64,000 nt of DNA from contig JASTWF010000048.1 in assembly GCA_030390025.1 (NCBI GenBank), positions 2,108,001-2,172,000 on the forward strand. Direction: 5' to 3'. Source of the stretch: Squalus acanthias. Its lineage: Eukaryota. This document shows, piece after piece, positions 4,771 to 44,936 of the stretch; position 1 is the first letter of the stretch, and every line of letters begins with the position of its first letter. Below the pieces are notes generated by a model that was given only the letters and a program-made list of their open reading frames with translations, made no database searches and was not told where the DNA came from. A program made the translations under genes and the position numbers.

Positions 4771-5752
4771 TATTTCAATGTTTACTTCCAATGAGGGAAG
4801 GAGCGAGAGCAGGAACTTTCACTGCTGCGAGGAGCCAAAGCGCACTTTTGAAATCATTGAGAGGAACATGAAAAGCTTAAGGAAGCGATAAAGGGATGGA
4901 TAGATCCCCTGTCTCCAGTTCAACCAATCGGAATCGACGTGTTTGCCAATGTCTCCCCTTGTTTATCACTGTCTCTCAATCTCACATTCTCTCTCTCTCC
5001 CTTTCGCTCGTGTCTCTCTCTATGTTCCTCCGGCTCTCTTTATCTCTCTCTGAAACTTTCATTGTTTGGCTGTATATGTTTCAGCATCTCCCGCTCTCTN
5101 NNNNNNNNNNNNNNNNNNNNNNNNNNNNNNNNNNNNNNNNNNNNNNNNNNNNNNNNNNNNNNNNNNNNNNNNNNNNNNNNNNNNNNNNNNNNNNNNNNNN
5201 NNNNNNNNNNNNNNNNNNNNNNNNNNNNNNNNNNNNNNNNNNNNNNNNNNNNATTTCTCTCTTTCATCTCATCTCTCATTCTCTATCTCTTTGTCTTTGT
5301 CTCTATCACTCCCTCATTCACTAACTCACTCTCTTGCTCTCTCTCTCTCTCTCTCACTTGAAACAAACTGCATTGAAAGGTACATGTGCGCTGATCAGAA
5401 CTGGTCTCCAGACTCAGACAGTGGAGCAGGAGTGAGAGATACGCGGTCCCACAGCCCCGCACTTCCATCACCCTCCGCCCCTCCTGATTCTTCCACAAAT
5501 GCACGGATTGGTTACTGGTTGCAGGGCGGGGATGACGTATCACGTCAGACGACACGCCTCACCATCTTGTCCACAGCCATTTAAGGAGGGGAGGGGAGAG
5601 GAGGGAGTATGGGATGCGAGGGGGAGGAAGGAGTAGGAGAGAGTAGAGGACAGGAGGGGAAGTATTGAAGGAGAAAGGAAGCACGGAACTAATATCTAGT
5701 GCTGCCACATGGTGGCGGATATGGAGCACTGAACTCCCAGTCGTCCGCTGCA

Positions 5753-5791
5753 GGTTTTTGTAGCTGGGGAGCCGCTTTCTCAAACGCTGTG
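5753..5791 (-). other. 23-RSS of A1
   Basis: CACAGCG-23-ACAAAAACC. Confidence 0.93.
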
Positions 5792-7037
5792 CGGTACTAC
5801 AAGCACAGTAATAGACAGCGGTGTGAGACGGAGAGGCGGCGCTCAGTTCCAAAGTAAACAGCGTAGCGCTGCTTCTTTCGGCCTTAAAAGACTCGGTCGT
5901 GTACTTCGTAACATCACCTGCTCCAACAGAAGTGAAAAGAGCTTCTAATGCCCGCTCGGGTTGTTGGCTGTCCCAGAGCATAAAGCTATAGCCAGTATTC
6001 GTCAGCGTGCATCTGAGCTTGGTCGACTCTCCTGCTCCAATCGATAGGACAGAAGGCGACTGCTCCACGTACGAGGCGAGTATTCCTGTCGAACGCAACA
6101 TCGATTAGTTTCTTGTTTATGGCATTAATTCATTAAAGCGTGGACTACAGAGAAAAAGAACTTCCATTCATAAAGCTCCATTCACGACTTCAGAAACTCA
6201 CAAAGCTCTTTAAAACCAATGAGGTACTGATTAAAGTGTAGTCATTGTTGTAATGTAGGAAAGGAGACAGCCACTTTTCCTCCGGGTGCTCCGGTTTCCT
6301 CCCACAGTCCAAAAATGTGCGGGTTAGGTTGATTTGGCTATGATAAATTGACCCTTAGTGTTAGGTGGGGATTAAATATGTGGGGTTATGTGGATAGGAT
6401 GGGATATGTTAGGGGGAATTAAATACGTGGGGTTACGGGGGTAGGGTGGGATATGTGTACTGTGGGGATTAAAGCAGGGACAGGGTACTGGATTTGAATG
6501 ATCAGCCATGATCGTATTGAATGCTGGAGCAGGCTCGACGGGCCGAATGGCCTACTCCTGCTCCTAGATTCTATGTTTCATTGTTTCTATGTTTCTATTT
6601 TGAGCACAGCAAGCTCTCACATACTGCCTTGAAATAAATGACCATTACATCTAGTTCTTGGTATTTGTTGTGGGGTTAATGTTGGACCAGGACACTGGCG
6701 ACAACATCACTGACTTTCTTCCAATAGTGCAATGGGATAATTTGTGTCCACCTGAGAGGGCAGCACAGTTTAACGCCTTATCTGAAAGATGACACCTCCG
6801 AAAGTGCAGCACTCCCTCAGTGCTGGCCTCGGGATTGCCAGCATAGATTTTGTGCTGAAGTCACATGAGTAAGACTCGAACACAAAACCTCTGATTCAGA
6901 GGCAAGGATTCTACCAGCTGAACAACAGCTGACATTATAGTACATTATTCTACAAAGACCTCTGCATAAGTTTGTTAATTTGACTTACGTGGGATCAGTG
7001 TCGCCATCAACGTTAGATAATGAGCTTCACTAAACAT
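5792..7037 (-). CDS. TRBV: TCR V segment, family A (A1); open frame but atypical FR2 (WDSQQP)
   Basis: Leader exon 6989..7037 (MFSEAHYLTLMATLIP, GTAAGT donor). V exon 5792..6085 after CAG acceptor, with Cys23, Trp41 and YYC. 23-RSS follows. Confidence 0.85.
6275..6598 (+). mobile_element. 5'-truncated HE1-like V-SINE in the A1 intron
   Basis: V-domain CTCCGGGTGCTCCGGTTTCCTCCCACAGTCCAAA, CR1-like 3' stem-loop and (GTTTCTAT)n tail. Absent from paralog A5. Confidence 0.8.
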
Positions 7038-7155
7038 GATTTATTCATTCGACACTGGCTCGCTGTGTGATCGGGTGCAGCTCAATACCACGTTTAAAGG
7101 CAGTTTCTCTGTTGGATCTGATTAAATACGAAACATCCGCTTATAAATGTCACTC

Positions 7156-7169
7156 TTACGTCACTTCCT
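7156..7169 (-). promoter_or_regulatory. Family A V promoter ETS+CRE element (also 20354..20367, 46019..46032; variants near 27197 and 35443)
   Basis: AGGAAGTGACGTAA ~120 bp upstream of the leader ATG, with TTTAAA closer to the ATG. Confidence 0.6.
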
Positions 7170-9607
7170 CTGTAACCCAAGCTCCATCCCATTCCTTCGG
7201 TAGTTTAGTTGCTTCATAGAACGGTACAGCACGGAATTTTAAGGAGCGAATTGAAAGAGATGATCAAAATTATGAAGGATTTTGATAGACTTGATAGGGA
7301 GAAACTAAATCCATTGGCAAGAGGGTCGTTAAGTAGAGCACACAAACTTAAGATAATTGGCAAACAAAAATAGCGGGGAAATGAGGAGACATAAATGTTA
7401 TTACACAGAGAGTTTTCATGGTCTGGAATGTATTGCCTGAACGGGCAGTGGAAGCAGATTCAATAATAACTTTCAAAAGGGAATTAGATATAAACTTGAA
7501 AAATAAAGAAAAACCAGGTCTGCGGGGAATGAGCAGGAAAGCCGAACTAAATTGATAGGAGCGACCAAAACTAAGGGTCACAAATATAAGATAAACACTA
7601 ATAAATCTAACAGAGAATTCAGGAGTAATAACTTCACACAAAGTGTGCTGGGAATGTAGAACTTGATACCACATGGCGTGGTTGAGGGAAATGGCATAAA
7701 TGTTTTTAAGTGGAAGGTAGATAAGTATGTGAGGGAGGAAGGAATAGAAGGAGATGATGATGTGGTGGTCGAAGAGGGGTGGGGTAAAGCCCGAGGGGAT
7801 TTCGTTGGGTAGGTCTTTCAAAGAGACGGCACTGGCTCGATGGGCCGAATGGCCTCCTTCTGTGCTTTACGATTTTATGCTTCTATAAGACACGCAACAT
7901 TGTTGGGACAAAGTGCTCTCCTGTTTCAGGCAGTGCGGGTTTCAGTTCCTGTGTGCTGAACAAGAATTCAAGGGTTACATATTGTACTGGGTTGAATTCG
8001 CAGAATCATTGAGGAACACATCAAAAGGCCCCTAGAGCCTGATAGAGAAGCGGCTAAACGGTTGTCAACAGAAGCTGAAACCGCCGCCATGATGCAGGTG
8101 TCCCGGTGACAAACATATCTGGAGACGCATCTCGACTTTGCACAGTGTAATAGTTCCTGTTGGTATGAGATAGTCCAACTTAGAGCAGAGCAGGATAAGG
8201 GGAGAATTGATAGAGGTGTTCAAAATCATGAAGGTTTTGCTGGAGTAATTAAGGGGAAATTCTCTCCAGTGGCCGCAGGGTCGGTGAGCAGAGGAGGCAG
8301 ATAAAAGGTGATTGACAGAAGAACCAGAGGGGGAGAAGAGGAGAATGTGTTTACTCTGCGAGTTGTTATGATCTGGAATGCATCGTCTGAAAGGGCAGTG
8401 GAAGAAGGTTGAATATTAACTTTCAAAGTGAATTGGCTAAAATCTTGCAGGGAAAATTTACAGGGCTATGGGGAAAGAGAAGGGGAGGGGGACTAATCGG
8501 ATTTCTCTTTCAAAGAGCCGGCACAGGTACAATGGGCCGAATGGTGTCCATCTGTGCTCCATCTGTGGTGCATCATTCTAAGGTTCTATGATAATCAGCG
8601 CATCTCTGATCACTACCGCAATCCGACAAATCGGGGAGGGATCTGCACCCACTCTGCTGAGGTGATCCTGGGAATTATTCAGAAGAATAATCGGGAGGTA
8701 CGTGTGAGATCCGTCCCATATTCCTCCATCCGTTCTTTCAACTCTGGTATTAACCCATTGAACCCACCGCCTCCTCTACTTCTTATAATGTAAAGAATAT
8801 CTTAAAGAAAAGGACATCCAAACCAGCAATATAGCATGTTTAATGATTAATAATAAATTAAATTCATCTAAGGTGACAAAGANNNNNNNNNNNNNNNNNN
8901 NNNNNNNNNNNNNNNNNNNNNNNNNNNNNNNNNNNNNNNNNNNNNNNNNNNNNNNNNNNNNNNNNNNNNNNNNNNNNNNNNNNNNNNNNNNNNNNNNNNN
9001 NNNNNNNNNNNNNNNNNNNNNNNNNNNNNNNNNNNNNNNNNNNNNNNNNNNNNNNNNNNNNNNNNNNNNNNNNNNNNNNNNNNNNNNNNNNNNNNNNNNN
9101 NNNNNNNNNNNNNNNNNNNNNNNNNNTAAAAAGATATATAGATACATCCAGAACAATTTCCCGACTTGAAATCTTTAGTTGTCTGCCCATTTTGTTTATT
9201 TCCTGCCGATGACCCACTGTATATTCCAGCTCCGTCTCACAAAGAAAACGCCATCTGAGACGCTTTCTCAGCCTCTTNNNNNNNNNNNNNNNNNNNNNNN
9301 NNNNNNNNNNNNNNNNNNNNNNNNNNNNNNNNNNNNNNNNNNNNNNNNNNNNNNNNNNNNNNNNNNNNNNNNNNNNNNNNNNNNNNNNNNNNNNNNNNNN
9401 NNNNNNNNNNNNNNNNNNNNNNNNNNNNNNNNNNNNNNNNNNNNNNNNNNNNNNNNNNNNNNNNNNNNNNNNNNNNNNNNNNNNNNNNNNNNNNNNNNNN
9501 NNNNNNNNNNNNNNNNNNNNNNNNNNNNNNNNNNNNNNNNNNNNNNNNNNNNNNNNNNNNNNNNNNNNNNNNNNNNNNNNNNNNNGCGGTAGGGTCTGAG
9601 ACGGGCG

Positions 9608-9646
9608 GGTTTTGGTCGCACGGTTCAGTCCGAGTGTGTCTCTGTG
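9608..9646 (-). other. 23-RSS of C1 (degenerate)
   Basis: CACAGAG-23-ACCAAAACC. Confidence 0.8.
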
Positions 9647-10982: not shown

Positions 10983-12370
10983 GATCCTGGACAGGGGGGT
11001 CTGAGACCAGAACCCCCATGGCCAACATGCTGCCCAGTGACCGGAGTTATGAGACTGCTGTGTGCAAGGACGGAACTGGTGGGTGTAACCCGGAACCACC
11101 TTTATGATTCAAAAGATAACACTGAATATACAATGTCCGTCCCTTCCTGTTTGATTGACAGCCCTGTTCCTCCCAATTATATTGACAACCCAGCTCCGCC
11201 CCCATTGGTGGGTAACCCGGCACCTCCCTCTCTGATTGTAGGTAATAGAGCAGATGGGAACAGGGAGTTGGAAAGGGGAAATGGACAGATTAAGTGAGTG
11301 CGCAAACCTGTGGAAGTTTAAATTTTATGTGGGCAAGTGTGAGGTCATGCACTTTGGCCCTAAGAAAGAAAGGTGTCCAGGTACACAAATCACTAAACGC
11401 CAGTAGACAGGTGCAAAAATGAATCAAAAAGGACAATGGAATGCTGCCCTTCATCTGAAGGAGTCTGGAATACAAAGCGAGTAAGTTGTGCTCCTGTCAT
11501 ATAGAGCCTTGGTCAGACACCATCTGGAGTACTGAGATCAGTCTGGGCATCGCAACTCAGGAAGGATGTGTTAGACTTAGAGGGAATCGAGCACAGATTC
11601 ACCAGACTGATACCGGGGCTTAGATGGTTAAATTGTAAGGGCAAGCTGAGGATCAATTGGAGCTTTCAAGACTGTGATTGACCGATATTTGTTGGGTAAG
11701 GGTATCGAGGTATATGGAGCAAAGTTGATTAGTTGGAGTTGAGACACACATCAGCCATGATCTTATTGAATGGCATATCAGGCTCGAGTAGTTACACGGC
11801 CTTCTCCTGTCGCTGTTTAACAGGGTCGATGGCCAAATTGCCACTTCCTGCTCCTATGTAACAGGCTAGAGGGATGTATGACCTCTTCCTGCTCCTGTGT
11901 AACAGGCGCAACGGAATTGAATGACCTCCTCTTAATCCTTTCTTCCTGCCAAAACATTTTCAATAAACAGCGTATTTCATGCTCCTGGAGCGCCATCTGC
12001 TGTCCCTGTGGAGAAAGAAAACATTGTGTCAGTGTAAAAAAGCAAGCAGTCTTATAATTTTATTTTCTTATTTTTATCTCTCTATCCTTCTTTCTGCCAT
12101 TCTTTTGGTCTTTCTTTCGTTCTCTCCTTCTTTCCTTCCTTGTTTTTTTTCTTGATATCTTTTGCTTGTTTCTCTCTATCCAACTTTCATTCTATCATTC
12201 TCCACTACATCTAACTTAATCTTTCTTTGCACCTTCTCCGGTGCCTTTATATCTAATCTATCACTTTTCTTCGAACGCGTGTCAAAAACACGTTCGCTCT
12301 GCGAAACAAAACACAGCGGAAGGAAGCAACGCGCTGTGTTAGCGTATACAGGTGTCTCTTGCCTCGTTGG

Positions 12371-12409
12371 GGTTTTTGTTCAGCTCCTCCATCTCTCTGA
12401 GTCACTGTG
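12371..12409 (-). other. 23-RSS of B1
   Basis: CACAGTG-23-ACAAAAACC. Confidence 0.95.
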
Positions 12410-16843: not shown

Positions 16844-17984
16844 GGTCCCCCTACCCATCTCGGACTGAAAACACCGCTTCTCCACTCCCAGGCTGTTTCA
16901 CAGTCCCGCCCCTCCCACGCTGATTGACATCCAGACCCTCCCTCTCCGAATGGCAATAAGTAGATCAGATGGGAGCAACAAGTTGCAAAGCAGAACTAAC
17001 CAGATTATGTGAATGAGAAAATCATTGGCAGGTGGAGTTTAATGTGGGCAAGTATGAGGTTAACCACGGTGGGCCTAAGGAAGAAAGATGAGAGTATTTT
17101 GTAACTGAGGAGAAACTCGGAAGAGTGAAGGAGCAAAGTTAATTGGTTGTTTAGGTATACAAATCACTAAAGGCAAAGATAGAGGTGCAAAAAGGAATCA
17201 AACAGCTGAATGCAATGTTGGCCTTTATGTCAAGGTTCGCTGGAATTCAAAAGGGAGGAAGTTATGATTCGGTTGTACAGAACCCCGGTCAGACTCTGGA
17301 ACACTACTATCAGTTCTGGTAACCGCAACTCTGAAAGGATACATTGACCTTGGAAGGAGAGCAGCAACGATTCACCAGAACGATACCGGGGCTTAGAGGG
17401 TTAAATTGTGGGGGCAGGTTGCAAGACTAGACTTGTATTTCCTTCAGTATGGAAGATTGAGGGATGAACGGAATTCGCTTTGTTTAATGCTAAAAGATTA
17501 TAGGATGGATGGAAACTATTTCCTATCGTGGGGGAGTCCAGAACAACGAGGCTTGACTTCACAATTAGTGCTTGGATTTCAGGGGTGAGATTAGGAAGCA
17601 ATTCTTCATATAATGGGTAGTAGAAATCTTAACTCTCTCCCACAAAAGGCTGTGGATGCTGGGGGTCAATCGAAGATTTCAAGACTGAGATAAATAGATT
17701 TCAGTCGGGTTGGGGTGTGGCGGGATATGGAGTAAAGGCAGGTAGATGGAGTTAAGATACAGCTCAGTTATAATCTAGTTGAGCGGTGGAGCGGGCTCGA
17801 AGGGCTGAATCGTCTCCTCCTGTTCCTGCGTTCCTATTGAACCGTGTTCCAGGCATTGGTGTGTTTCCTGGTCCTAGAGCGCCCTCTGCAGCCCGACTCT
17901 TCTCTACCTCTAAATTACCGGAACCCTTTCATAATTTTAAAAACCTCTGTCAGGTCACTCCACAGTCTTTATCTTTCCCGAGAA

Positions 17985-18425: not shown

Positions 18426-19235
18426 CTTTTATTTTAATGTTTGCGTTTAATAAGGGACGGGGCGAGAACAGGAGCCTGGAGTTTTGTAAGGAGGCAACCC
18501 GCACTTCTCAAATCATTGCGGTAAACATGAAGAATATGAGCAAGCAATAGAGAGAAGGACAAGCCCACTTTCTGCAGTTCAACCAATCGGAATCGACGTG
18601 TTTGCTGATGTTTCTCACTTTCTATCTCGCTCTCTTAATCTCTCTCTCTGTCTCTCTCTGTTCCCTTTCATCTCTTTCTCTGTCCGTACTTCTCTCGCTC
18701 TCTGGATATCTCTCTCCATCTGACAGTGTGTGTGTCTCTCTCTATGTCTCTCACTCTCTGCATGGGTATCTCTCTGTCTCTCTCCCTGTCTCTCTCTCTC
18801 TCTCTCTGCCTCTCTCTCTCCCTCTGTCTCACCCTGTATCACTTTCTATCTCCCTCACTCACCCTCTATGTCTCTCACTCTGTCTCTTTTAAACAAACTG
18901 CGTTGAAAGGTAAACGTGCGCTGAACGGAGCTGATCTCCAGACTCAGACAGTGGAGGAGTGAGAGGTACGGGGTCCCATAGCCACGCTCTTCCATTCCCC
19001 TCCGCTCCTCTGAATCTTCCACAAATGCACGGATTGTTTACTTGTTGCGGGGGGTGGGGGGATGACGTATGACGTCGGACTACACGCCTCACCATCTTGT
19101 CCCCAGTTATTTAATGCGGGGAGAGTAGAGGAGGAAATAGGGGATGCGAGGGGAGGGAGAGGAAGGAGTAGGGGAGCAGAGAGGAGAGGAGGGGATGGAG
19201 TGAAGGAGAAAGGATGCACTGAACTAATATGTAGT

Positions 19236-19253
19236 ACTGCCACCTGGTGGCGG
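19236..19253 (-). promoter_or_regulatory. CTCF-like motif next to family A RSS (also 5701..5718, 26064..26081, 34315..34332, 44885..44902)
   Basis: Minus strand CCGCCACCAGGTGGCAG, 31-34 bp beyond the nonamer in all five family A genes. Confidence 0.7.
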
Positions 19254-19284
19254 AAAAGCACTGAACTCCCATTCATCCGCTGCA

Positions 19285-19323
19285 GGTTTTTGTAGCTGGG
19301 GAGCCGCTTTCTCAAACGCTGTG
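19285..19323 (-). other. 23-RSS of A2
   Basis: CACAGCG-23-ACAAAAACC. Confidence 0.93.
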
Positions 19324-20235
19324 CGATACTACAAGCACAGTAATAGGCAGCGGTGTGAGACGGAGAGGCGGCGCTCAGTTCCAAAGTAAACAGTGCAGTG
19401 CTGCTTCTTTCTGCCTTAAAAGACTCGGCCGTGTAGTTCGTAACAGCACCTGCTCCAACAGAAGAGAAAAGAGCTTCTAATGCCCGGTCGGGTTGTTGTC
19501 TGTACCAGAGCATAAAGCTATAGCCAGTATTCGTCAGCTTGCATCTGAGCTTGGTCGACTCTCCTGTTCCAATCGATAGGACAGAAGGCGACTGCTCCAC
19601 GTAGGAGGCGAGTATTCCTGTCGAACGCAACATTGATTAGTTTCTTCTTTATATCAATAATTGGCTAGAGCGCGGACTACAGAGAAAAATAAATTCCATT
19701 TATAAAGCGCCATTCACGACTTCAGAAACTCACAAACACTTTACAACCAACGAAGTACTTATTAAAGTGTAGTCATTGTTGTAATGAAAGAAAGGAGAAA
19801 GACAATTAGAGCACAGCAAGCTCCCACATACTGCATTGAAATAAATGACCAGTGCATCTGTTTTTTGGTGCTTGTTGTGGTTTTAATGTTGGCCTAAATC
19901 ACCGGCGAGAACTTCGCTGCTCTTCTTCCAATAGTGCCCTGGGAACATTTACGTCCACCTGATTGGGCAGCTCGCATTAACGCCCTATCCGAAAGATAGC
20001 ATCTCCGAAAGTGCAGCACTCCCTCAGTGCTGGTCTCGGGAGTGTCAGCATAGATTTTGTGCTCAAGTCTCAGGAGTAAGACTCAAACCCCAAACCTCTG
20101 GTTCAGAGGCAAGATTCCTACCAGCTGAACAACAGCTGACGTTATAATACTGTATTCTACAAAGTAAGTTTGTTACTTTGACTTACGTGGGATCAGTGCC
20201 ACCATCAACGTTAGATAATGAGCTTCATGAAACAT
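19324..20235 (-). CDS. TRBV: TCR V segment, family A (A2), apparently functional
   Basis: Leader 20187..20235 (MFHEAHYLTLMVALIP). V exon 19324..19617 YVEQSP..C..WYRQQP..YYCACS. 23-RSS. Confidence 0.9.
19695..20140 (-). mobile_element. tRNA-headed Deu-SINE (SacSINE1-like) in family A introns (copies ~6162..6933, 26527..26973, 34777..35222, 45346..45796)
   Basis: Minus strand begins GTCAGCTGTTGTTCAGCTGGTAG with a B-box-like GTTCGAGTC (variant in some copies), followed by a Deu-like GAGGGAGTGCTGCACT..GGAGGTG..TTTC core. Confidence 0.65.
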
Positions 20236-20550
20236 GATGTATTCATTTGACACTGGCTCGCTGTGTGATCGGGTGTAGCTCAATACCACGTTTAAAGGCC
20301 GTTTGTCTATTGGATCTGGTTACAGACGAAGCATCCGGTTGTACTGGTCACTCTTACGTCACTTCCTGCGTAACCCACTCTCCATCCCATTCCTTCGGTA
20401 GTTCAGCAACTTCACAGAACCGTACAGCACAGAAGGTTAAGGAGAGAACTGATAGATGTGTTCAAAATTGCGAATGGTTTTGATAGATTGATAGGGGGAA
20501 GCCATAGTCACTGGCATGGCAGTCGTTAACTAAAGCACACAGACTTAAGA

Positions 20551-24465: not shown

Positions 24466-26115
24466 TTTTTACTGTAACTTTTTCTCTTAATTATGAAAGG
24501 AGGGAGAACAGGAAAATTGTGTCTGGTGAGAATCCAAGCCGCTCTATTCAAATCATTCAGGAAAACATGAAGTCCGTGAGGAAGTGATGCAGATTTGGAC
24601 AGCCCCGCCCCTCCCTCTCTTATTGGCAGCCGCGCCTCTCCCCCACCCCCGCCCCCTTATTAACAGCCCCGACTCGCCCTCTCTGATAGGCAGCCCAGCT
24701 ACTCCCTCTCTGATTGGCAGTAATTAGAGCAGCCGGGAGCTGAATGTTGCAATGGGGACATAGACGAATTAAATGAATGAGCAAAACAGAGGTTGATGAA
24801 GCTTAAAGTGGGCAATGTGAGATCATCCACTGCCAACCTAAGAAAGAGTGATCAGAACATTTTCTGAATGGTGAAAACCTGGGAACTGTGAAGGTGCAAA
24901 GGGGTTTAGTTATCAAGCTACACAAATCGCTATCGGCCAGTAGACAGGTACAAACATCAAAAAAGGCTTATGTAATGTTGGCCTTTATCTCAAGGGTGCT
25001 GGAATACTGAGGAGAGAAAGTTAAGCTTCAGTTGAACAGCGTCCTGGCCAGACACCAACTGGAGCAGAACTTTCAGTTCTGGGCAACACAATTCAGGAAG
25101 GATATATTGGTCTTGGAGGGAGTGCAGCGATGATTCACCAGATTGATACCGGAGCATAGAAGACTTATTATGAGGACAGATAACATAGACTAGGCTTGTA
25201 TTCCTCTGATTATAGAAGATTGAGAAGTGATCCTACTGAGGTGTTTAAAAGATTCGAGACTGTCGATAGAGAGATGGTATTCCCTCTGGTGAGGGGCAGT
25301 CCAGAACTAGGCGGCATCAGCTTCGCTTTAGAGCGAGGCTGATCAGGGGTCCTGTCTGGAAGCACTTCTTGACACAAAGGGTCGTTCAAATCTGGCATTC
25401 TCTCGCCCAATTGGCTGTTGAGGCTAGAGGTCAATTGAAGATTTCGAAACTTCGATTTTTTTGGGTAAGGGTGTCATGGGCTGTGGAACGATTGGTGTTT
25501 TGTTTCAGATACTGAAAATCACACTATCGAAAATATATCAATCATTTAGAGAGGGTGCAGAGGAGATTTAATAAATGGTACCAGGGACGAGGGTCTCCAG
25601 TCACATTGAGAGACTAGAGGAGATGGGATTGTTCTCCTTAGGGCACGGACGAATAACGGGGGATTTAATGGAATTGTTCAAAATCATGAAGGGTTTTGTT
25701 AAAGTAAATCAGGAGAAACGGTTTCCAGTAGCAGAAGAGTCGGTAACCAGTGGGCACAAATTTAAAGACCAGATAAGGGTATGATGCTTTTTTATTGTAC
25801 AGCGAGTTGTTATGGTTTGGAATGCACTGGCCGAATGGGTGGAGGAAGCAGATTCAATAATAATTTTCCAAAGGCAATTGGATACACACTTGAACCGGGA
25901 CGGTTACTGGGCTGTGGCGAAAGGCACGGGAATATGATTAATTGGATAGCTCTTTGATAGACCCGGTACTGGCACGTGGGGCGGAATGACTTCCTTCCGT
26001 GCTGTACCATTCTATGGTTCTATGACCTGGGGGCAGAATAGTTGCACCGAAATAAAATCTAGTGCTGCCACATGGTGGCGGAGAATGATCACTGAACTAC
26101 CAGTCATCCGCTGCA

Positions 26116-26154
26116 GGTTTTTGTAGCTGGGGAGCCGCTTTCTCAAACGTTGTG
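26116..26154 (-). other. 23-RSS of A3
   Basis: CACAACG-23-ACAAAAACC. Confidence 0.9.
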
Positions 26155-27078
26155 CGGTACTGCAAGCACAATAATAGACAGCGGTGTGAGACGGAGAGGC
26201 GACGATCAGTTCCAAAGTAAACAGCGTAGTGCTGCTTCTTTCTGCCTTAAAATATTCGGACGTGTATTTCGTAACAGCACCAGCTGCAGCAGAATAGAAA
26301 AGAGATTCTAATGCACGGTCGGGTTGTTGTCTGTACCAGAACATTAAGGTATAGGCAGTGTTCGTCAACGTGCATCTGAGTTTGGTCGACACTCCTGTTC
26401 CAATCGATACAATAGAAGGCGACTGCTCCACGTACGAGGCGAGTATTTCTGTCGAATGCAACATCGATTAATTTCTTATTTTTGTCAATAATTGGTTAGA
26501 GCGCACAATACAGAGAAAAATGATTCCCATTCATAAAGCGCCACTCAAGACATCAGAATGAGACAAAGCTCTTTACAACTAATGAAGTACTGATTAAAGT
26601 GCAGTCATCGTTGTAATGTTGGAAAGGAGACAGACAATTCGAGAACAGCAAGCTCCCACATACAACATTGAAATAAATGCCCAGTACAGCTTTTTTATTT
26701 GGTGTTTGTTGTGGGATTAATGTTGGCCCAGGTCACCGGCGACAACTTCGCTGCTCTTCTTCCAATAGTGCCATGGGATCATTTACGTCCACCTGAGAGG
26801 GCAGCTCAGTTTAACGCCTTATCTGAAAGACGGCATCTCCGAAAGTGCAGCACTCCCTCAGCGCTGGCTTCGGGAGTGTCAGCATAGATTTTGTGCTCAA
26901 GTCTCAGGAGTAAGACTCGAACCCAAAACCTCTGATTCGGAGGCAAGGTTTCTACTAGCTGAACAAGAGCTGACATTATAATACATTATTCTACAAAGAC
27001 CTCTGCATAAATTTGTTTATTTGACTTACGTGGTATCAGTGCCACCATCAACGTTAGATAATGAGCTTCATGAAACAT
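26155..27078 (-). CDS. TRBV: TCR V segment, family A (A3), apparently functional
   Basis: Leader 27030..27078. V exon 26155..26448 open. RSS heptamer CACAACG. Confidence 0.9.
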
Positions 27079-32766: not shown

Positions 32767-34366
32767 CTTTTATTCATGCTTTTCCCTTAATAATGAAAAG
32801 AGCGAGAACAGGAGAGTTGTTTCTTGTGATGATCCAACCAGCTATGTTCAAATCACTGAGGAAATCATGAACAGCATTATGACAGCCCCGACCCATCCGC
32901 TCTGACACACAGCCCCACCTCTCCCTCTCTGATTGGCAGCCCAGCTGCTCCATCTCTGATTGACATTAATTTAAGCAGATGGGTACTGGAATTTACAAAG
33001 CGGACATAGACAGATTAAATGAATGAACAAAACAGAGATAGATGAACTTTAATGTGGGCAAAGGTGAGGTCATCCACTGTGACCCAAAGAAAGATAGTGT
33101 CGAGTATTTTCTAAATGGTGAGAAGCTGGGAACTGTAGAGGGGCAAAGGGATTTAGGTGTCGAGCTAGACAAATCACATAAGAGCCAGCAGGCATGTACC
33201 AAAATCAAAAAGGCTAATAGAATGTTGGCCTTTATCTCAAGGGTGCTGGAATACAGAGGAAAGAAAGTTATACTTCAGTTGTATAGCGTCCTGGTCAGAC
33301 TCCATCTGGAACAGGACGTTCAGTTCTGAGTAAACTCTTCAGGAAGGATATATTGGTCTTGGAGGGAGTGCAGCGAAGATTCAACAGAATGATACCGGGG
33401 CTTGGAGGGTTACTTTTTGAGGACAGATTACATAGACTAGGCTTGTATTCCATTGAATATAGAAGATTGAGCAGTGATCCTACTGAGGTGTTTAAAATGT
33501 TAAAAGTATTGGAGACTTTAGATAGAGAGAAGGTATTCCCTCTGGTGAGGGGCAGCCCAGAACTGGGGGCCATCAACTGAGCATTAAAGCGAGGCCGATC
33601 AAGGGTCATATCTGGAGGCACCTCTTGACCTAAAGGGTAGTGGACATCTGGAATTCTCTCTCCCATTTGGCTGCTGAGGCTAGAGGTCAATCGGGTATTT
33701 CAAAACTTAGATTTTTGTTAGGTAAGTGTTACGGAACCAGCTGGAGTTATGGTTCCTCTTCTGATCACACACTTTCGGAAGCATATCAAGGACTTCGACA
33801 GGGTGAAGAGGAGAATTACAAAATAGTACTAGGGACGAGGGTTTCCAGTCACATTGAGAGACTAGAGAAGATGGGATTGTTCTCCTTCGGGCTGAGACGG
33901 TTAAGGATCGATTTAATGGAAGTGTTCAAAATCATGAAGGGTTTTGATAGAGTAAATAACGAGAAACTACATCCAGTGACAGAAGCGTCTGTAACCAGTG
34001 GGAACATATTTAAGGACCAGATAGGGAGATGATGAGTTTTTTTATTGTAGAACGAGTTGTTATGGTTTGGAATGCACTGCCCGAATAGGTGGAGGAAGCA
34101 GATTCAATAATACGTTTCCAAAAGGAATTGGATACACACTTCAAGCGGAACGTTTACAGGGTTATGGGGCAAAGGCACGGGAATAGGACTAATTGGATAG
34201 CTCTTTGAAAAGACCAGTATAGGTATGTGGGGCCGAATGATCGCCTTCCGTGCTCTATCATTCTATGATTCTATGACTTGGTGGCAGAATATTTGCTCCG
34301 AAATAAAATCTAGTGCTGCCACCTGGTGGTGGAAAATGAGCAGTGAAATCCCATTCATCCGTTGCA

Positions 34367-34405
34367 GGTTTTTGTCGCTGGGGAGCCGCTTTCTCAAACG
34401 CTGTG
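34367..34405 (-). other. 23-RSS of A4
   Basis: CACAGCG-23-ACAAAAACC. Confidence 0.93.
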
Positions 34406-35323
34406 TGATACTACAAGCACAGTAATAGACAGCGGTGTGAGACGGAGAGGAGGCGCTCAGTTCCAAAGTAAACAGCGTAGTGCTAATTCTTTCGGCCTTA
34501 AAAGTCTCGGTCGTGTACTTCGTAACATCACCTGCTACAGCAGAATAGAAAAGAGCATCTAATGCCCGGTCGGGTTCTTGTCTGTACCAGTACATTTGGA
34601 AATAAGCAGTATTCCTCAGCGTGCATCTGAGCGTGGTCGACTCTCCTGCTCCAATCGATAGGACAGAAGGCAACTGCTCCACGTACGAGGCGAGTATTCC
34701 TGTCGAATGCAACATCGATTAATTTCTTATTTTTTTCAATAATTGATTTGAGCACGGACTGCAATGAAAAAGAACTTCCATTCATAAAGCGCTTTCACGA
34801 ACTCAAAAATTCACAAAGCTCTTTACAGCCAATGAAGTGCTGATGAAATTGTCGTCATTGTTGTAATGTCGGAAAGGAGACAGCCAATTTCAGCACAGCA
34901 AGCTCCCACATACTGCATTGAAATAAATGACCAGTACATCTAATTTTTGGTGTTTGCTTTGGGATTAATGTTGGCCCAGGACACCGGCGACAACTACGCT
35001 GCTCTTCTTCTAATAGTGCCCTGGGATCATTTACGTCTACCTGAGAGGGCAGCTCGGTTTACTGCCTTATCTGAAAGATGGCACCTCCGATAGTGCAGCA
35101 CTTCCTCAGTGCTGGTCTCGGGAGTGTCAGCATAGATTTTGTGCTCAAGTCTCAGGAGTAAGACTCCAACCCAAAACCTATGATTCCGAGGCAAGGTTTC
35201 GAACAGCTGAACAACAACTGACATTATAATACATTATTCTACAAAGATCTCATAAGTTTGTTATTTTGACTTACGTGGGATCATTGTCATCATCAATGTT
35301 AGATAATAAAATTCATGAAACAT
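34406..35323 (-). CDS. TRBV: TCR V segment, family A (A4), apparently functional
   Basis: Leader 35275..35323 (MFHEFYYLTLMMTMIP). V exon 34406..34699 open. 23-RSS. Confidence 0.9.
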
Positions 35324-36930
35324 GATTTATTCATTCGACAATGGCTCACAGTGCGAACTAGTGCAGCTCCAAACCACGTTTAAAATGCGATTTGTCGAGT
35401 GGATCTGATTAAATACGAAGCATCCGGTTGTAATTGTCACTCTTACGCCACTTCCTGTGCAAGTCACGCCCCATCCCATTCCTTCCCTAGTTTCGTAACT
35501 TCATAGAACCATACAGCACAGAACGTAAAGGAAAGGACAAATAGAGGTGATAAATATTAAACATTACGAATGGTTTCGATAGAGTTGATAGGGAGAATCT
35601 AAATCCACTGGCAGGAGGGTCGTTAACCAGAGGGCACAGATTTAAGATAATAGGCAAAAGGACCAGCGGGGAGATGAGGAGACGTAAATTTTATTGCAGA
35701 GAGTTGTCATGATCTGGAATGCATTGCCTGAAATGGCGATGGAAGCAGATTCAATAATTACTTCTGCAAGGGAATTGGATATAAACTTGATATGGAAAAA
35801 AACAGGACTATGGGGAAACAGCAGGGGAGTGGGACTAAATTGATAATCGGGACCAAAACTAGGGGCTTCTAGGATATACACTAATACATGCAAGAGGGTA
35901 TTCAGGAGTACCCTCGTTACACAAAGTGTGGTGAGACTCTGAAACTTGCTACCGCATGGAATGGTTGTGTCGAATAGCATAGCTGCATTTAAGGGGAGGC
36001 TAGATAATTACATGAGAGAGAAAGGAATTGAAGGATATGCTAATGGGCGTACTTGAAGAGGGGTAGGACGATGCCGGTGGGGTTCAAATTGGATAGGTCT
36101 TTCAAAGAGCCGCATCAGACCAGTCGGTCCGAATGGCCTACTTCAGTGCTGTAGGATTCTATGATTCTTGGAAAAATAGAACGTTGCTGGGAAAAATGCT
36201 CTCCTGTTTCAGGCAGTGCAGGTTTGAGTTCCGATGTGCTGAGCGAGAATTCAAGGGTAAATTCTTTGCTGAGCTGAATTCGCAGATTCTTTGAAAAACA
36301 AATCAAAAGCCATCTAGAGTCTGATAGAGAAGCGGGTAAACGGTTTTCAACAGATTCTGAAACCGCCGTCATGCGGCAGGTGTCCCGGAGACAAACATAT
36401 CTGAAGATGCGTCTCGTCTTCGCACAGTGTGAACCATCGGTGAGAATTGCAAGGGTTCTAATATTAAGTATTTCCTAATTGTATGGGGTGTTCTCCTTAG
36501 AGCAAAGAATGTAAGGCGGAGCTTTACCAGAATGATAGCAGGAGTGAGCGACTCAACTTTGCTGCAGAGACTGGAGAAGCTGGTGTTGTTCTGTCTACAG
36601 CACGCAATCTGGTTCTTAAATGACGATAATATCTTAAAAGAATGACATTCAGTACGTTGATATATTACATTTTTAATTAATTAAAAGCAATTTGTAATNN
36701 NNNNNNNNNNNNNNNNNNNNNNNNNNNNNNNNNNNNNNNNNNNNNNNNNNNNNNNNNNNNNNNNNNNNNNNNNNNNNNNNNNNNNNNNNNNNNNNNNNNN
36801 NNNNNNNNNNNNNNNNNNNNNNNNNNNNNNNNNNNNNNNNNNNNNNNNNNNNNNNNNNNNNNNNNNNNNNNNNNCCCGGTCTATCTAAATATGATTAGAA
36901 CTAGTTGGGGGTTGGTGTCTGAGACGGGTG

Positions 36931-39911: not shown

Positions 39912-39950
39912 GGTTTTTGTTGAGCTCATCCATCTCTCTGAGTCACTGTG
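39912..39950 (-). other. 23-RSS of B6
   Basis: CACAGTG-23-ACAAAAACC. Confidence 0.95.
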
Positions 39951-40484
39951 AAGACTCCAGGCGCAGTAATACACGGCCGAGTGATTCGCCAGCAGGTGGT
40001 AGGACTTCAGGTTGAACTCGTTGTCATTCGGTCTCTCGGCGGTAAAACCGTAAACCGTCCCCTCTGCATTCACGTGATTAGCAATCGTGGAGTAAAACAT
40101 TAACTGCGGCTCCTTCCCCGGGTCCCGTCTGTACCAGTACATGTATCCGCTACTGGCGCCTTCCACCTCGCACTTCAGTTCCATTCCCTCCCCAGGAATA
40201 TTGGAGAGAGCGGCGGGAGTCTGGCGGATCGTCTGCGAGTTCACATCTGGAAAGAGACGGTGAGAGGAAGAGATAAGTAAACAGGCGAATTCTCTGTTGT
40301 GGTGTTAAAAAGAATTAAAGAGCGAGAGAATGAAGGACAGAACGAAGGGAAGAATAGAAAAAAACGAAAGGAATAAAGAAAGAAGGAAAGAAATAAAGAG
40401 TAAAGAAAGTTTATTGAAAAAGACTATTGTTTGAAAAAGTCCCTTACATTGAAATAAGATCATGAGACTCATTAACAGATACAT
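39951..40484 (-). CDS. TRBV: TCR V segment, family B (B6), apparently functional
   Basis: Leader 40448..40484. V exon 39951..40246 open. Consensus 23-RSS. Confidence 0.9.
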
Positions 40485-42326
40485 CTTTTATTTAAAAGAT
40501 TTACTTTTAAAAATGAAATCAGCGAAAACAAGAGCGTTGAGTCTCGTGAGGATCCAACCCGCTCTTTTCAAATCATTGACGAGCGGAAGGAAGTGATGCA
40601 GGCCACGCCCTCTCTGATTGACAGCATCGCTCATCCACTCCTACGCTGATTGACAGACCCGCCCCACTCTCTGAAACATAGTCCCGCCCCCCACGCTGAT
40701 TGACAGACCCGTCCTCACTCTCTGATACATAGTCCCGCCCCCCACGCTGATTGACAGTCCAACCCCTACCTCTCTGTTTGGCAGTAAGGAGAGCAAACGG
40801 GAGCAGGTAGTTGCAGTGTTGAGCTAAACAACTTACGTGAATGAGAAAAAACAGCGACAGGTAGATTTTAACGTGGAACGTGGGCAAGTATGAGGCCAAC
40901 CACTGGGGGCCTAAGGAGGAAACATCAGTGTATTTTCTAACTGATGAGAAGCTGGAAAATGTCGAGGAGCAAAGAGATTTCGTTGGCCCGGTACACAAAT
41001 CAATAAAAACCAGGAGACAGGTGCAAAACTGAATCAAACAGCTTAATGCAATGTTGGCCTTGATGTCAAGGAGGCTGGAATACAAAAGGGAGGAAGTTAT
41101 GCTTCAGTTGGGCAGAGCTCTGTCAGACTCCAAGTGGCAAACTAGGTTCTGTTCTGGGGAACGCACCTCAGGAAGGACGTTTTGGTCTTGCAGGGAGTGC
41201 AAGGCAGATTCACCAGAATGCTTAGAGGGTTAAATTATGAAGACAGGTGGCATAGAATATCCTTGTCTGCCCTTGCATATACAAGATTGAGGTATGAACT
41301 GATTTAGTCTTTTGAGGTTAAAAGGTGTTGTTAGGGTAAACAGAATGAAAGTATGTCCACTGGTGGCGGAGTCCAAAACAACGGGGCATAACTTTACAGT
41401 GAGAGCTAAGCCTTTCTCGCGTGAGGGCAGGAAGCAGTTCTTCACACAAAGGGCAGTGAGAAACTTCAATTCTCTGCCCGAAAACGATGTGGGTGCTGGC
41501 GGTCAATTGGAGATTTCTTTACCGAGATTGATAGATTTTTTCTTTAATTAGTTAGCAAATCAAGAGATAGGGAGCAAAAGCGGGTCGATGGATTTAAGTT
41601 AAGTTACAGCTATGATCCAATTGAATGGCGAAGTCGGGTTGACGAGCTGAATGGCCTCCTCCTGTTCCTGTCTTTCTATTAAACCATGTTCCAGGCACTG
41701 AAATCTTTCATGGTCCTAGAGCGCCCTCTGCTGTCCTTGTGGAGAAACACAGCGTCAGTCGACAAAAAACCACCNNNNNNNNNNNNNNNNNNNNNNNNNN
41801 NNNNNNNNNNNNNNNNNNNNNNNNNNNNNNNNNNNNNNNNNNNNNNNNNNNNNNNNNNNNNNNNNNNNNNNNNNNNNNNNNNNNNNNNNNNNNNNNNNNN
41901 NNNNNNNNNNNNNNNNNNNNNNNNNNNNNNNNNNNNNNNNNNNNNNNNNNNNNNNNNNNNNNNNNNNNNNNNNNNNNNNNNNNNNNTCGTTCTATCTTTC
42001 TGTCTTTGTGCCTTTCTTTCTCTATCCTTTTCTTTTTATTTCTCTATCACTATATCATTCTTTCCTTCATTACTTATATATTTAATTCCCTCTTTCTACC
42101 TTTTTTACATTCCTTCTTTCCTTTCTTTCTTTTTGCTTTGATTATTTGAGTTTGTTTTGCTCAGCCCCAACTCCACCTATCACTGAAAGGCAGTGACCTC
42201 GGCGGACTGAATGTGCTCAACACTTCAGACAGGACAGGTTGATGTTGTGCCCGAGCAACATATCCTTCTATTGCTTTCTCATTCTTATGTTTATGTAGTT
42301 CCCCTTAAATGCATCTGTGCTACTCG

Positions 42327-43395
42327 AAGTAACTGGCTATCTCAAAGAAGGCAGCGGGTGGTGGTGGATGGAAAATTTTCGGATTGGAGACCAGTTACCA
42401 GCGGTGTGCCACAGGGGTCGGTGCTGGGTCCTCTGCTGTTGTGATTTTTATCAATGACTTGGAGGAGGGGACTGAAGGGTGGATCAGTAAATTTGCTGAT
42501 GACACCAAGATTGGTGGAGTTGTGGATGAGGTGGAGGGCTGTTGTCGGCTGCAAAGAAACATTGATAGGATGCAGAGCTGGGCCGAAAAATGGCAGATGG
42601 AATTTAACCCTGATAAGTGCGAGGTGATTCATTTTGGTAGGGCAAATTTGAATAAGGAGTACAGAGTCAACGGCAGGGTTCTAAGGTACGTGGAGGAACA
42701 GAGGGATCTGGGGGTTCATATCCACAGATCTCTGAAGGTTGCCACTCAAGTGGATAGAGCAGTAAAGAAGGCCTATAGTGTGTTAGCGTTTATTAACAAG
42801 GGGTTTGAGTTTAAGAACCGTGAGGATATACTGCAACTGTACAGGACCTTGGTGAGACCACATTTGGAATATTGTGTGCAGTTCTGGTCACCTCACTATA
42901 AGAAGGACGTGGAAGCATTGGAAAGAGTGCAAAGGAGATTTACCAGGATGCAGCCTGGTTTGGGAGGGAAGGTCATATGAGGAAGGATTGAGGGAGCTTA
43001 TGCTTTAATCTTTAGAGCGGAGGAGGATGAGAGGCGACTTAATAGAGGTTTATAAGATGATGAGGGGGATAGATAGAGTGGATGTTCAGAGACTATTTCC
43101 TCGGGTGGATGTAGCTGTTACAAGTGGGCATAACTATAAGGTGCATGGGGGGAGATATAGAGGGGATGTCCGAGGTAGATTTTTTACTCAGAGAGTGGTT
43201 GGAGTGTGGAATGGACTGCCTGCTGTGATAGTGGAGTCGGACACTTTAGGAACTTTCAAGCGGTTATTGGATAAGCACATGGAGCACACCAGAATGATAG
43301 GGAGTGGGATAGCTTGATCTTGGTTTCGGACAATGCTCGGCACAACATCGAGGGCCGAAGGACCTGTACTGTGCTGTACTGTTCTATGTTCTATG
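42327..43395 (+). mobile_element. 5'-truncated CR1 LINE
   Basis: ORF2 RT C-terminal fragments ([25 protein letters not shown]) and TTCTATG tail. Confidence 0.9.
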
Positions 43396-43614
43396 ACGCA
43401 AACATTCCCTGTTGTAGCGAGTTCAACGTTCTCGCCATTCTCTGAGTAAAGAAGTTTCTCCTGAATTCCCTATTTTAATTTATCTTATATTTATGTCCCC
43501 GAGCTTTGGTCTTTCCCACATGTGGAAACATTTTCGATACATCGATCCTGTTGAAACCGTTTCATAATTTTCGCTTTCAGCTTACCACTCAGTCTTCTCT
43601 TTTCTAGAGAAAGC

Positions 43615-43945
43615 AGCCTTCCCGGGTATTGTCCGTGCCGGAACATGTTAGGGTTACCGATAGTCTTCACAGAGCATTTCAGTTCCACACGCTCCCGAGG
43701 TAATTTGAAGACAGCGGCGGGACTCTGGCGGATATTCTGCGAGCTCACATCTAGTATAGAGACGGGGAGAGGAAGAGGTCAGTAAACAGGGACATTCGGG
43801 CATTGGGAAAAGTGAGCAAGAGCGAAAGAAAGAAAGTGACATAGAAAAAAAGTAAGTAAATTGTGATTGTTAGCAATAATTATTGTTATAAAAATTTTCT
43901 TAAGGTTAAACGTGTTCAGCAGTCCCAGTAACAGATAGTTATTTT
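43615..43945 (-). pseudogene. 3'-truncated family B V pseudogene (B7), duplicate of B0
   Basis: Same breakpoint and decayed leader as B0. Confidence 0.8.
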
Positions 43946-44285
43946 ATTTCAATGTTTACTTCCAATGAGGGAATGAGCGAGAGCAGGAACTTTCACTGTT
44001 GCGAGGAGCCAAAGCGCGCTTTTCAAATCATTGAGAGAAACATGAAAAGCTTAAGGAAGCAATAAAGGGATGGTTAGATCCCCTGTCTCCAGTTCAACCA
44101 ATCGGAATCGACGTGTTTGCCAATGTCTCCCCTTGTTTATCACTGTCTCTCAATCTCTCATTCTCTCTCTCTCTCTCTTTCTCTCGTGTATCTCTCAATG
44201 TTCCTCCGGCTCTCTTTATCTCTCTCTGAAACATTCATTGTCTGGCTGTATATGTTTCAGCATCTCCCGCTCTCTCTCTCTGTCA

Positions 44286-44322
<37 letters not shown>

Positions 44323-44936
44323 GTCTCTCTGCCTGTCTCTTTCTCTTTCTCTCTGTCTCCCTTTCAATCGCTTTCTCTTTCTCTCTCGCTATCTCTTCCT
44401 CTCTCTTTCTCTATCTCTCACTCTTTATTTCTCTCTTTCATCTCTCTCTCTCTCTTTCTCTATCTCTTTGTCTTTGTCTCTCTCACTCCCTCATTCACTA
44501 ACTCACTCTCTTGCTCTCTCTCTCTCTCTCTCTCACTTGAAACAAACTGCATTGAAAGGTAAATGTGCGCTGATCAGAACTGGTCTCCAGACTCAGACAG
44601 TGGAGCAGGAGTGAGAGATACGCGGTCCCACAGCCCCGCACATCCATCACCCTCCGCCCCTCCTGATTCTTCCACAAATGCAAGGATTGGTTACTGGTTG
44701 CAGGGCGGGGAAGACGTATCACGTCAGACAACACGCCTCACCATCTTGTCCACAGCCATTTAATGAGGGGAGGGGAGAGCAGGGAATATGGGATGCGAGG
44801 GGAAGGGGAGGAAGGAGTAGGAGAGAGTAGAGGAGAGGAGTGGAAGGATTGAAGGAGAAAGTATGCACTGAACTAATATCTAGTGCTGCCACATGGTGGC
44901 GGAAATGGAGCACTGAACTCCCAGACGTCCGCTGCA

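What the first reader, a model, noticed from the sequence alone, without database searches (positions are those of the whole stretch)
5701..44902. CTCF-like motif at a fixed distance beside every family A RSS
Seen: all five family A genes carry CC(G/A)CCACCA(G/T)GTGGCAG on the minus strand, 31-34 bp past the nonamer (5701, 19236, 26064, 34315, 44885). In most copies a TTCAGTG element sits just 5' of it, reminiscent of the CTCF upstream motif. It persists in A3 and A4, where paralog homology ends ~25 bp further on. Known: RSS-adjacent CTCF-binding elements of mouse proximal VH genes impede cohesin loop extrusion and promote RAG access. Inference: a similar RSS-CTCF device may operate in a cartilaginous-fish TCR locus, which would make this logic very old.
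Basis: partly seen in the sequence, partly recalled or inferred. Interest (0 to 1): 0.8.

Follow-up and report, generated by a model that had tools for sequence, protein, structure and literature searches.

The report
CTCF-type sites behind shark TCR genes
In this stretch of a shark T-cell receptor beta locus, most variable gene segments are followed by a same-facing DNA motif for the chromosome-folding protein CTCF, which suggests, from sequence alone, that sharks may steer receptor gene assembly the way mice do.

Summary
Observation confirmed. The window is an elasmobranch TCR-beta V cluster. All five family A genes carry a CTCF-type motif 34 bp (31 in A2) past the nonamer. A2 and A4 score about 23 bits; A1, A3 and A5 have lost a finger-contacted G (15 bits; matrix recalled). 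Two new results strengthen the CTCF reading. First, family B has its own, unrelated CTCF-type motif on the same strand, 350-827 bp past the RSS, in 10 of 10 genes (7 strong), with substitutions milder than random (P 0.011). Second, read-through gene models place the A block at the same distance in sawshark (34 bp) and whale shark (35 bp), though with weakened cores. This resembles mouse RSS-adjacent VH sites and the co-oriented mouse Tcrb sites. No binding data exist here, the D-J-C position is unknown, and an E-box inside the motif is a live rival. A shared origin with the mouse device is not shown. No paper on this in sharks was found.

The parts
5700..5718 (-). A1 CTCF-type motif (CATGTG variant), 34 bp past nonamer of RSS 5753-5791
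   Evidence: 15.2 bits, p 2.8e-6; opposite strand 12.0; gap
19235..19253 (-). A2 CTCF-type motif (CAGGTG variant), 31 bp past nonamer of RSS 19285-19323
   Evidence: 23.6 bits, p 4.5e-9; opposite strand 17.1; exact match to degenerate core
26063..26081 (-). A3 CTCF-type motif (CATGTG variant), 34 bp past nonamer of RSS 26116-26154
   Evidence: 15.2 bits; opposite strand 14.5
34314..34332 (-). A4 CTCF-type motif (CAGGTG variant), 34 bp past nonamer of RSS 34367-34405
   Evidence: 22.6 bits, p 1.2e-8; exact match to degenerate core
44884..44902 (-). A5 CTCF-type motif (CATGTG variant), 34 bp past nonamer of RSS 44937-44975
   Evidence: 15.2 bits; opposite strand 14.7
5725..5734 (-). Upstream-motif-like 10-mer of A1 (also 19257-19266, 26088-26097, 34339-34348, 44909-44918); imperfect
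   Evidence: 5-6 of 10 to the paper's consensus, background 4.7%
5753..6077 (-). A1 V exon and 23-RSS
   Evidence: tryptophan motif reads WDS, leader start pattern not found
19285..20235 (-). A2 gene: leader start, intron, V exon, 23-RSS
   Evidence: 67% identical to a sawshark TCR-beta chain
26116..27078 (-). A3 gene: leader start to 23-RSS (heptamer CACAACG)
34367..35323 (-). A4 gene: leader start to 23-RSS
44937..45900 (-). A5 gene: leader start to 23-RSS
11988..12006 (-). Family B CTCF-type motif, 364 bp past B1 nonamer (12371)
   Evidence: 17.8 bits
15789..15807 (-). Family B motif, 359 bp past B2 nonamer (16167)
   Evidence: 18.6 bits
23327..23345 (-). Family B motif, 350 bp past B3 nonamer (23696)
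   Evidence: 21.0 bits
31290..31308 (-). Family B motif, 827 bp past B4 nonamer (32136; V exon frameshifted)
   Evidence: 21.0 bits
39445..39463 (-). Weak family B motif, 448 bp past B5 nonamer (39912)
   Evidence: 11.7 bits
49137..49155 (-). Family B motif, 361 bp past B6 nonamer (49517)
   Evidence: 18.7 bits
51252..51270 (-). Family B motif with a 5-base deletion, 769 bp past B7 nonamer (52040)
   Evidence: 8.8 bits
55357..55376 (-). Family B motif with one extra G, about 574 bp past B8 nonamer (55951); region rich in single-base indels
   Evidence: found by flank-only profiles; alignment
57259..57277 (-). Family B motif, 573 bp past the RSS of the B pseudogene at 57.9 kb (heptamer CATAGTG)
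   Evidence: 17.3 bits
60266..60284 (-). Family B motif, 596 bp past B9 nonamer (60881)
   Evidence: 18.0 bits
1147..1165 (-). Orphan family B motif without an RSS of its own (also 17877-17895, 41719-41737, 59582-59600)
   Evidence: 17.9, 16.5, 18.6, 14.2 bits; flank homology; V remnants nearby
34260..34275 (-). (CATAGAA)n end of a dispersed repeat 38 bp past the A4 motif (also 26009-26024 for A3); 'CR1-type LINE tail' is a recalled label
   Evidence: same state in the sawshark model

Best explanation
These are V-gene-linked CTCF-binding elements of a shark TCR-beta locus. Two unrelated ancestral sites, one about 34 bp past the family A RSS and one 350-830 bp past the family B RSS, both face the same way as V transcription and were multiplied by cassette duplication. 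Shown: motif, geometry, co-orientation, mild substitution pattern in B, same-position block in two other sharks. Inferred: (1) CTCF binds them in thymocytes, best at A2, A4 and the intact B sites; (2) D-J-C lies 3' of the V genes, so the sites face a convergent anchor there; (3) cohesin stalls or anchors at each site and brings the neighbouring RSS to the RAG-loaded recombination centre, by scanning arrest as in mouse Igh or by V-anchored extrusion and diffusion as at mouse Trbv1; (4) weaker variants (A1, A3, A5, B5, B7) lower the use of those genes, so site quality tunes the repertoire.
For: A2/A4 22.6-23.6 bits, the two best of the window; 17 matches over 15 bits against 0.6 in 60 shuffles, 15 of 17 on the V strand (recalled matrix). 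Matrix-free: 18 matches to a recalled degenerate core against 0.64. A site this good within 68 bp of an RSS has chance 3e-7 (G form) or 2e-4 (T form); the B site within 830 bp 2e-4. B site present at 14 flank-defined places, 10 of 10 B genes with an RSS; 9 distinct substitutions in the 11 ungapped copies cost 1.2 bits on average against 3.5 at random, P 0.011; variable positions are low-information, P 0.034; core identity 0.89 against 0.80 for the V exon of the same 10 genes. Sawshark and whale shark read-through models give their best possible CTCF score at gaps 34 and 35 (16.2 and 14.3 bits; 17 and 35 of 5000 shuffles); the whale shark block differs from A4 by at least 6 of 36 bases, like its V exon (46 of 282), while flanks do not align. 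Context from papers: mouse VH sites within 68 bp of the RSS (PMC6439775); all mouse Tcrb V-region sites point to D-J-C (PMC5859386); loss of the Trbv1 3' site cuts recombination 6-fold (PMC10772921); skate has the CTCF orientation code (PMC10115646); lamprey CTCF binds the same two-part motif (PMC5504073).
Against: Family A substitutions are no milder than random once the G form is taken as ancestral: P 0.38, and 0.49 with the inferred sawshark changes. 3 of 5 A copies lack the G, and sawshark the next purine, that finger 5 contacts (PMC10484683 section 12); whale shark has two further core changes at best. In sawshark the repeat tail past the motif is as conserved as the motif (4-5 of 48 against 4 of 21 minimum differences from A3/A4), so no motif-specific excess there. 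In B the 22 bases 5' of the motif are as conserved as the whole 19-mer (0.85 each), 3 of 14 copies are broken by indels or a replaced 5' side, and sites persist beside pseudogenes and RSS-less remnants, unlike mouse VH. Co-orientation rests on only two independent origins. The A motif is near-palindromic and scores 12-17 bits on the other strand. Upstream motif is marginal. Motif scans alone predicted real binding poorly in PMC5504073. No D, J or C segment was found in the window (no 12-RSS).
Confidence: 0.58

Rival explanations
1. Passenger DNA: CTCF-like words arose in two ancestral cassettes, were copied with the genes and are decaying; sharks' slow sequence change explains the cross-species likeness.
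For: A substitutions look random; sawshark flank as conserved as the motif; sites beside pseudogenes and remnants, and broken copies at B5, B7, B8; A motif identity 0.93 is close to the V exon 0.91 and RSS spacer 0.95, on only 3 changes.
Against: Two independent strong sites, both 3' of the RSS on the same strand, each with chance 2e-4 or less; B substitutions avoid high-information positions; A motif 0.93 against 0.82 and 0.79 for its flanks; whale shark block conserved while flanks are not.
Confidence: 0.17
2. The family A element is an E-box for E-proteins (E2A/HEB) that opens chromatin at the RSS; the CTCF likeness is incidental, or both factors use it.
For: CANNTG is intact in 5 of 5 A copies and the G/T change falls on its free position; the inferred sawshark and whale shark changes also spare it (reading); 8 of 9 B genes have CACCTG 16-17 bp past the nonamer, identity 0.93 against 0.76 for that region; E47 controls mouse V-beta chromatin (PMC7478721 passage).
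Against: A hexamer does not explain a 19-base match at p 1e-8; sparing four E-box bases in five changes over 13 positions has chance about 0.1 (hand calculation); the B CTCF-type motif is a separate element with no E-box consensus; CAGGTG and CATGTG are preferred by different bHLH classes (recalled).
Confidence: 0.13
3. The sites bind CTCF but act as insulators or promoter-side anchors between neighbouring V transcription units, with no direct effect on the adjacent RSS.
For: B sites are 350-827 bp away and their distance drifts with a purine-rich repeat; a CRE/CCAAT promoter-like block lies about 150-200 bp past the A1, A2, A5 sites; most mouse Tcrb sites are at promoters, only 2 of 18 near an RSS (PMC5859386).
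Against: A distance is fixed at 31-35 bp in three sharks; A3, A4 and sawshark have a repeat, not a promoter, downstream.
Confidence: 0.12

Closest known systems
RSS-adjacent CTCF-binding elements of mouse D-proximal VH genes (7183, Q52 and others; VH81X)
   Same: Site 3' of the V RSS within 68 bp, pointing away from V, one per gene of a family; natural strong and weak variants (PMC6439775, PMC7930373, PMC5859386 passages)
   Different: TCR-beta, not IgH; shark, not mouse; present also beside pseudogenes; no occupancy or mutation data; no homology between the sites can be shown
Mouse Tcrb V-region CTCF sites, especially the Trbv1 3' site
   Same: Same locus type; all sites co-oriented; site downstream of a V gene (PMC10772921, PMC5859386, bioRxiv 10.1101/2024.10.13.618029 passages)
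   Different: Mouse: 18 bound sites in a 666 kb locus, 2 near an RSS. Here 19 motif places in 64 kb, one behind 15 of 17 RSS-bearing V genes (2 C genes hidden by N runs); motifs, not bound sites
Two-part (core plus upstream) CTCF sites
   Same: 6-bp linker in 4 of 5 A copies; CAGT core of the upstream word in 4 of 5
   Different: Only 5-6 of 10 bases match; absent at B sites

Membership tests
TCR-beta V gene cluster (elasmobranch) | V exons related to TCR-beta chains, each followed by a 23-RSS | tested here: met
   16 23-RSS plus one with a CAT heptamer; A2 is 67% identical to a sawshark TCR-beta chain with C domain, 77% and 60% to sawshark and whale shark models. Families B and C were not searched in the databases; their class rests on linkage and likeness to A
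CTCF-binding element | Core motif match above usual scan thresholds | tested here: met
   5 of 5 A sites p 2.8e-6 or better, 7 of 10 B-gene sites 17 bits or more (recalled matrix); degenerate core 0-1 mismatch
CTCF-binding element | Finger-contacted core bases intact | tested here: inconclusive
   Intact in A2, A4; finger-5 G lost in A1, A3, A5; B sites keep it but have A for the first C
CTCF-binding element | Upstream motif at a 5-6 bp linker (optional, 13-15% of sites) | tested here: inconclusive
   5-6 of 10, background 4.7%
CTCF-binding element | Substitutions constrained as the matrix predicts | tested here: inconclusive
   B met (P 0.011, 0.034); A not met (P 0.38, 0.49)
CTCF-binding element | CTCF and cohesin occupancy in the rearranging cell | not testable with these tools
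   No ChIP or CUT&RUN data at hand
RSS-adjacent VH-type element | Within about 68 bp 3' of the RSS | tested here: met
   Family A 31-34 bp (limit from PMC6439775). Family B does not meet it (350-827 bp)
RSS-adjacent VH-type element | Oriented toward the D-J-C end, convergent with an anchor there | not testable with these tools
   Faces 3' of V, but no D, J or C found in the window
RSS-adjacent VH-type element | Present at rearranging genes, absent at non-rearranging ones | tested here: inconclusive
   Sites also at frameshifted genes and remnants; frameshifts may be read errors; no usage data
RSS-adjacent VH-type element | Loss of the site lowers recombination of that V | not testable with these tools
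   Needs editing or natural alleles
E-box (CANNTG) | Hexamer intact in all copies | tested here: met
   5 of 5 A; binding untested
Transposon-borne motif | Motif lies in a dispersed repeat or RNA-derived element | tested here: not met
   A region matches only its five paralogs in the window; no Rfam or tRNA match; limited to 64 kb, no repeat library at hand

The most novel reading that the evidence does not exclude
Shark TCR-beta pairs nearly every V gene with its own same-facing CTCF element, gained twice, one of them in the RSS-adjacent geometry known from mouse IgH and kept since before squalomorph and galeomorph sharks split; loop-extrusion control of V choice would then be as old as jawed-vertebrate V(D)J recombination, and the natural strong and weak alleles in one cluster would set V usage.
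Probability: 0.3. Interest if true: 0.8.

Novelty: new member of a known kind. Interest (0 to 1): 0.58.

Why it matters
CTCF control of V(D)J recombination has been dissected in mouse; the three searches aimed at sharks returned no paper on CTCF at a cartilaginous-fish antigen receptor locus. If the sites are bound, the earliest-branching lineage with RAG-based receptors uses the same architectural device, and the cluster offers a built-in test: near-identical V genes and RSSs that differ in one core base. It also shows that mis-predicted read-through gene models can report on the DNA past an RSS in other species.

Tried and rejected
1. No fetched CTCF matrix: a text search for it found 0 papers; the energy matrix in PMC5694663 is a picture; the PMC5504073 supplement was too large. 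Scores therefore rest on a recalled JASPAR MA0139.1 count matrix (column sums 913-908 are self-consistent), cross-checked by a degenerate pattern. 2. The 'A minus' test (P 0.003) took the T form as ancestral and is rejected; the corrected test is. 3. The whole-library profile search was swamped by the aldehyde dehydrogenase part of the sawshark model; none of its 150 hits was used. 4. Further read-through models: one search found 0 of 1 candidates, 3 of 267, 1 of 1508 (the same whale shark model). Cluster look-up could not be made, so further species stayed unchecked. No eukaryotic DNA collection was available, so cross-species evidence is from two protein models only. 5. A decayed tRNA-SINE head as origin of the A site (recalled resemblance): no support. 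6. A conserved read-through protein: rejected, the whale shark model reads another frame. 7. A splice acceptor as the reason for B conservation: the AG is lost in B3 and B4 while the motif stays at 21 bits, though the pyrimidine tract remains conserved and unexplained. 8. The five plus-strand 3-mismatch look-alikes at 8081, 21964, 29737, 36363, 46943 do not reach 8 bits. 9. PDB search only confirmed a V domain. 10. The shark-genome paper with CTCF ChIP-seq that I recall was not held; PMC12227049 had no passage on CTCF or TCR-beta. Pfam was not scanned (one search failed on frame).
Full report
Locus. The window holds a tandem V gene cluster on the minus strand: 16 V segments with 23-bp RSSs, one more with a CAT heptamer at 57.9 kb, and several remnants, in three families: A (5), B (10), C (2). 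No 12-RSS was found and no D, J or C segment was seen. A2 is 77% identical to a sawshark model, 67% to a sawshark TCR-beta chain and 60% to a whale shark model, so this is an elasmobranch TCR-beta V cluster. Self-comparison shows repeated cassette duplication.

Observation. The motif is at 5702, 19237, 26065, 34316 and 44886, 34 bp past the nonamer except 31 bp in A2. With a recalled JASPAR count matrix A2 and A4 score 23.6 and 22.6 bits (p 4.5e-9, 1.2e-8), the best in the window; A1, A3 and A5 score 15.2 (p 2.8e-6) because a near-invariant G is T. In the CTCF structure finger 5 contacts that G and the next purine (PMC10484683, section 12; mapping to matrix positions is mine). The site is near-palindromic and scores 12-17 bits on the other strand. 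The TTCAGTG element sits at a 6-bp linker in four copies but matches the upstream consensus of PMC12885311 (passages) at 5-6 of 10 bases, which 4.7% of random positions reach.

The five copies are one ancestral site. Within A the motif is 0.93 identical against 0.82 and 0.79 for its flanks and 0.91 for the V exon, on three changes only. With G as ancestral, those changes cost as much as random ones (P 0.38). The end of homology in A3/A4 borders a dispersed repeat that the sawshark model shares, so it marks one rearrangement.

New result 1: family B. The scan gave 17 matches above 15 bits against 0.6 in 60 shuffles, 15 of them on the V strand; a matrix-free pattern gave 18 against 0.64. Most belong to a second, unrelated motif behind family B. 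Profiles built from its flanks alone find 14 homologous places: 11 ungapped, one with a replaced 5' side, one with a 5-base deletion, one with an extra G. All 10 B genes with an RSS have it, 350-827 bp downstream, 7 at 17 bits or more; four places have no RSS of their own. In the 11 ungapped copies (the three others left out) nine distinct substitutions cost 1.2 bits on average against 3.5 at random (P 0.011; with the 5'-replaced copy 0.0014), and fall on low-information positions (P 0.034). Leaving out the two indel copies favours this result. Core identity is 0.89 against 0.80 for the V exon, but the 22 bases before the motif are also 0.85. The B tree is mostly unresolved, so substitutions were counted as distinct variants, not events.

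New result 2: other sharks. Two database gene models read through the RSS. In sawshark (Squalomorphii) the best CTCF score any synonymous back-translation allows is 16.2 bits at a 34-bp gap; in whale shark (Galeomorphii) 14.3 bits at 35 bp; 17 and 35 of 5000 shuffled peptides reach this at gaps 31-36, while anywhere in the tail 6% and 10% do. The whale shark block spanning the upstream-like word and core differs from A4 by at least 6 of 36 bases (null 19.9; 0 of 5000), like its V exon (46 of 282), while flanking blocks do not align; splicing in the model or indels could also explain the lost flanks. Both cores are weakened, and in sawshark the repeat tail beyond is as conserved as the motif. 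These are upper bounds from two protein models, not DNA.

Mechanism. Best reading (0.58): real CTCF elements, gained twice, facing 3' of the V gene. If D-J-C lies on that side they would be convergent with an anchor there, and cohesin stalling or anchoring at each would bring the neighbouring RSS to RAG. In mouse, proximal VH sites lie within 68 bp of the RSS and set usage (PMC6439775 passages; PMC7930373 passages); Tcrb has 18 bound V-region sites all pointing to D-J-C, 2 near an RSS (PMC5859386 passages); scrambling the Trbv1 3' site cuts recombination 6-fold (PMC10772921 section 7 and passages; bioRxiv 10.1101/2024.10.13.618029 passages). Skate has the orientation code (PMC10115646 passages) and lamprey the same motif (PMC5504073 passages), so the machinery is available. 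Binding, the anchor and any effect on recombination are inferred. Rivals: passenger DNA (0.17); an E-box, since CANNTG survives every change and 8 of 9 B genes have CACCTG 16-17 bp past the nonamer (0.13); insulator or promoter-side role (0.12).

Comparison and novelty. Family A works like an RSS-adjacent VH element in geometry; membership cannot be claimed without occupancy, orientation to D-J-C and a mutant effect, and family B fails the distance criterion. Searches for CTCF with shark or cartilaginous-fish receptor loci (listings and abstract starts only) showed no such report; most subscription papers and bioRxiv supplements are outside the library, and a shark CTCF ChIP-seq study I recall was not held. 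Other papers seen: PMC5694663 (passages, supplement part 1 of 2), PMC13470930 (passages: weaker cores go with upstream motifs), PMC12227049 and PMC7478721 (passages). Verdict: a new member of a known kind, interest 0.58. Whether the logic is inherited from the jawed-vertebrate ancestor or convergent cannot be told from this window.

Noticed in passing
   Followed up: yes
16-17 bp past the nonamer of B genes, e.g. window 12349-12354: CACCTG E-box in 8 of 9 B genes examined, more conserved (0.93) than its surroundings (0.76).
   Followed up: partly
five A sites: The three copies with a weakened core keep TTCAGTG at the 6-bp linker, while the two with a perfect core have it shifted (A2) or changed (A4); looks compensatory but rests on very few events.
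   Followed up: partly
window 5255-5660, 18789-19195, 44430-44844, minus strand: Block past A1, A2, A5 with two CRE-like words, CCAAT, GC box and an ATG-led hydrophobic stretch; found only in these three places; perhaps an orphan V promoter and leader.
   Followed up: partly
window 7158-7168, 20356-20366, 46021-46031: Ets plus CRE word about 120 bp before the family A leader (labels recalled), as in mammalian V-beta promoters.
   Followed up: no
22 bases 5' of each B motif, e.g. window 49156-49177: Conserved pyrimidine tract ending in CAG, like a splice acceptor; AG lost in B3 and B4; function unexplained.
   Followed up: partly
window 39986-40004, plus strand: A 17.4-bit CTCF-type match inside the B5 V exon, facing the other way; B5's own downstream site is weak.
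   Followed up: no
A1, A3, A5 between nonamer and motif: The T variant and a second change are shared by A3 with A1/A5 although A3 is only 86-87% like them elsewhere: gene conversion or recurrent change.
   Followed up: partly
window 49.5-58 kb: B6, B7, B8 and the 57.9 kb gene carry many single-base indels, possibly read errors, so pseudogene calls are uncertain.
   Followed up: no
protein P0001 (sawshark): Model fuses an aldehyde dehydrogenase 3B1 gene to B-like and A-like V pieces, which suggests that gene neighbours the V cluster in sawshark.
   Followed up: no
window 8081, 21964, 29737, 36363, 46943: Conserved GC-rich block with a CACCTG word about 2 kb upstream of each A V exon; weak for CTCF.
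   Followed up: partly
window 9278-9585 and 36699-36874: N runs start 22-56 bp past both family C RSSs and hide the place where a site could lie.
   Followed up: partly
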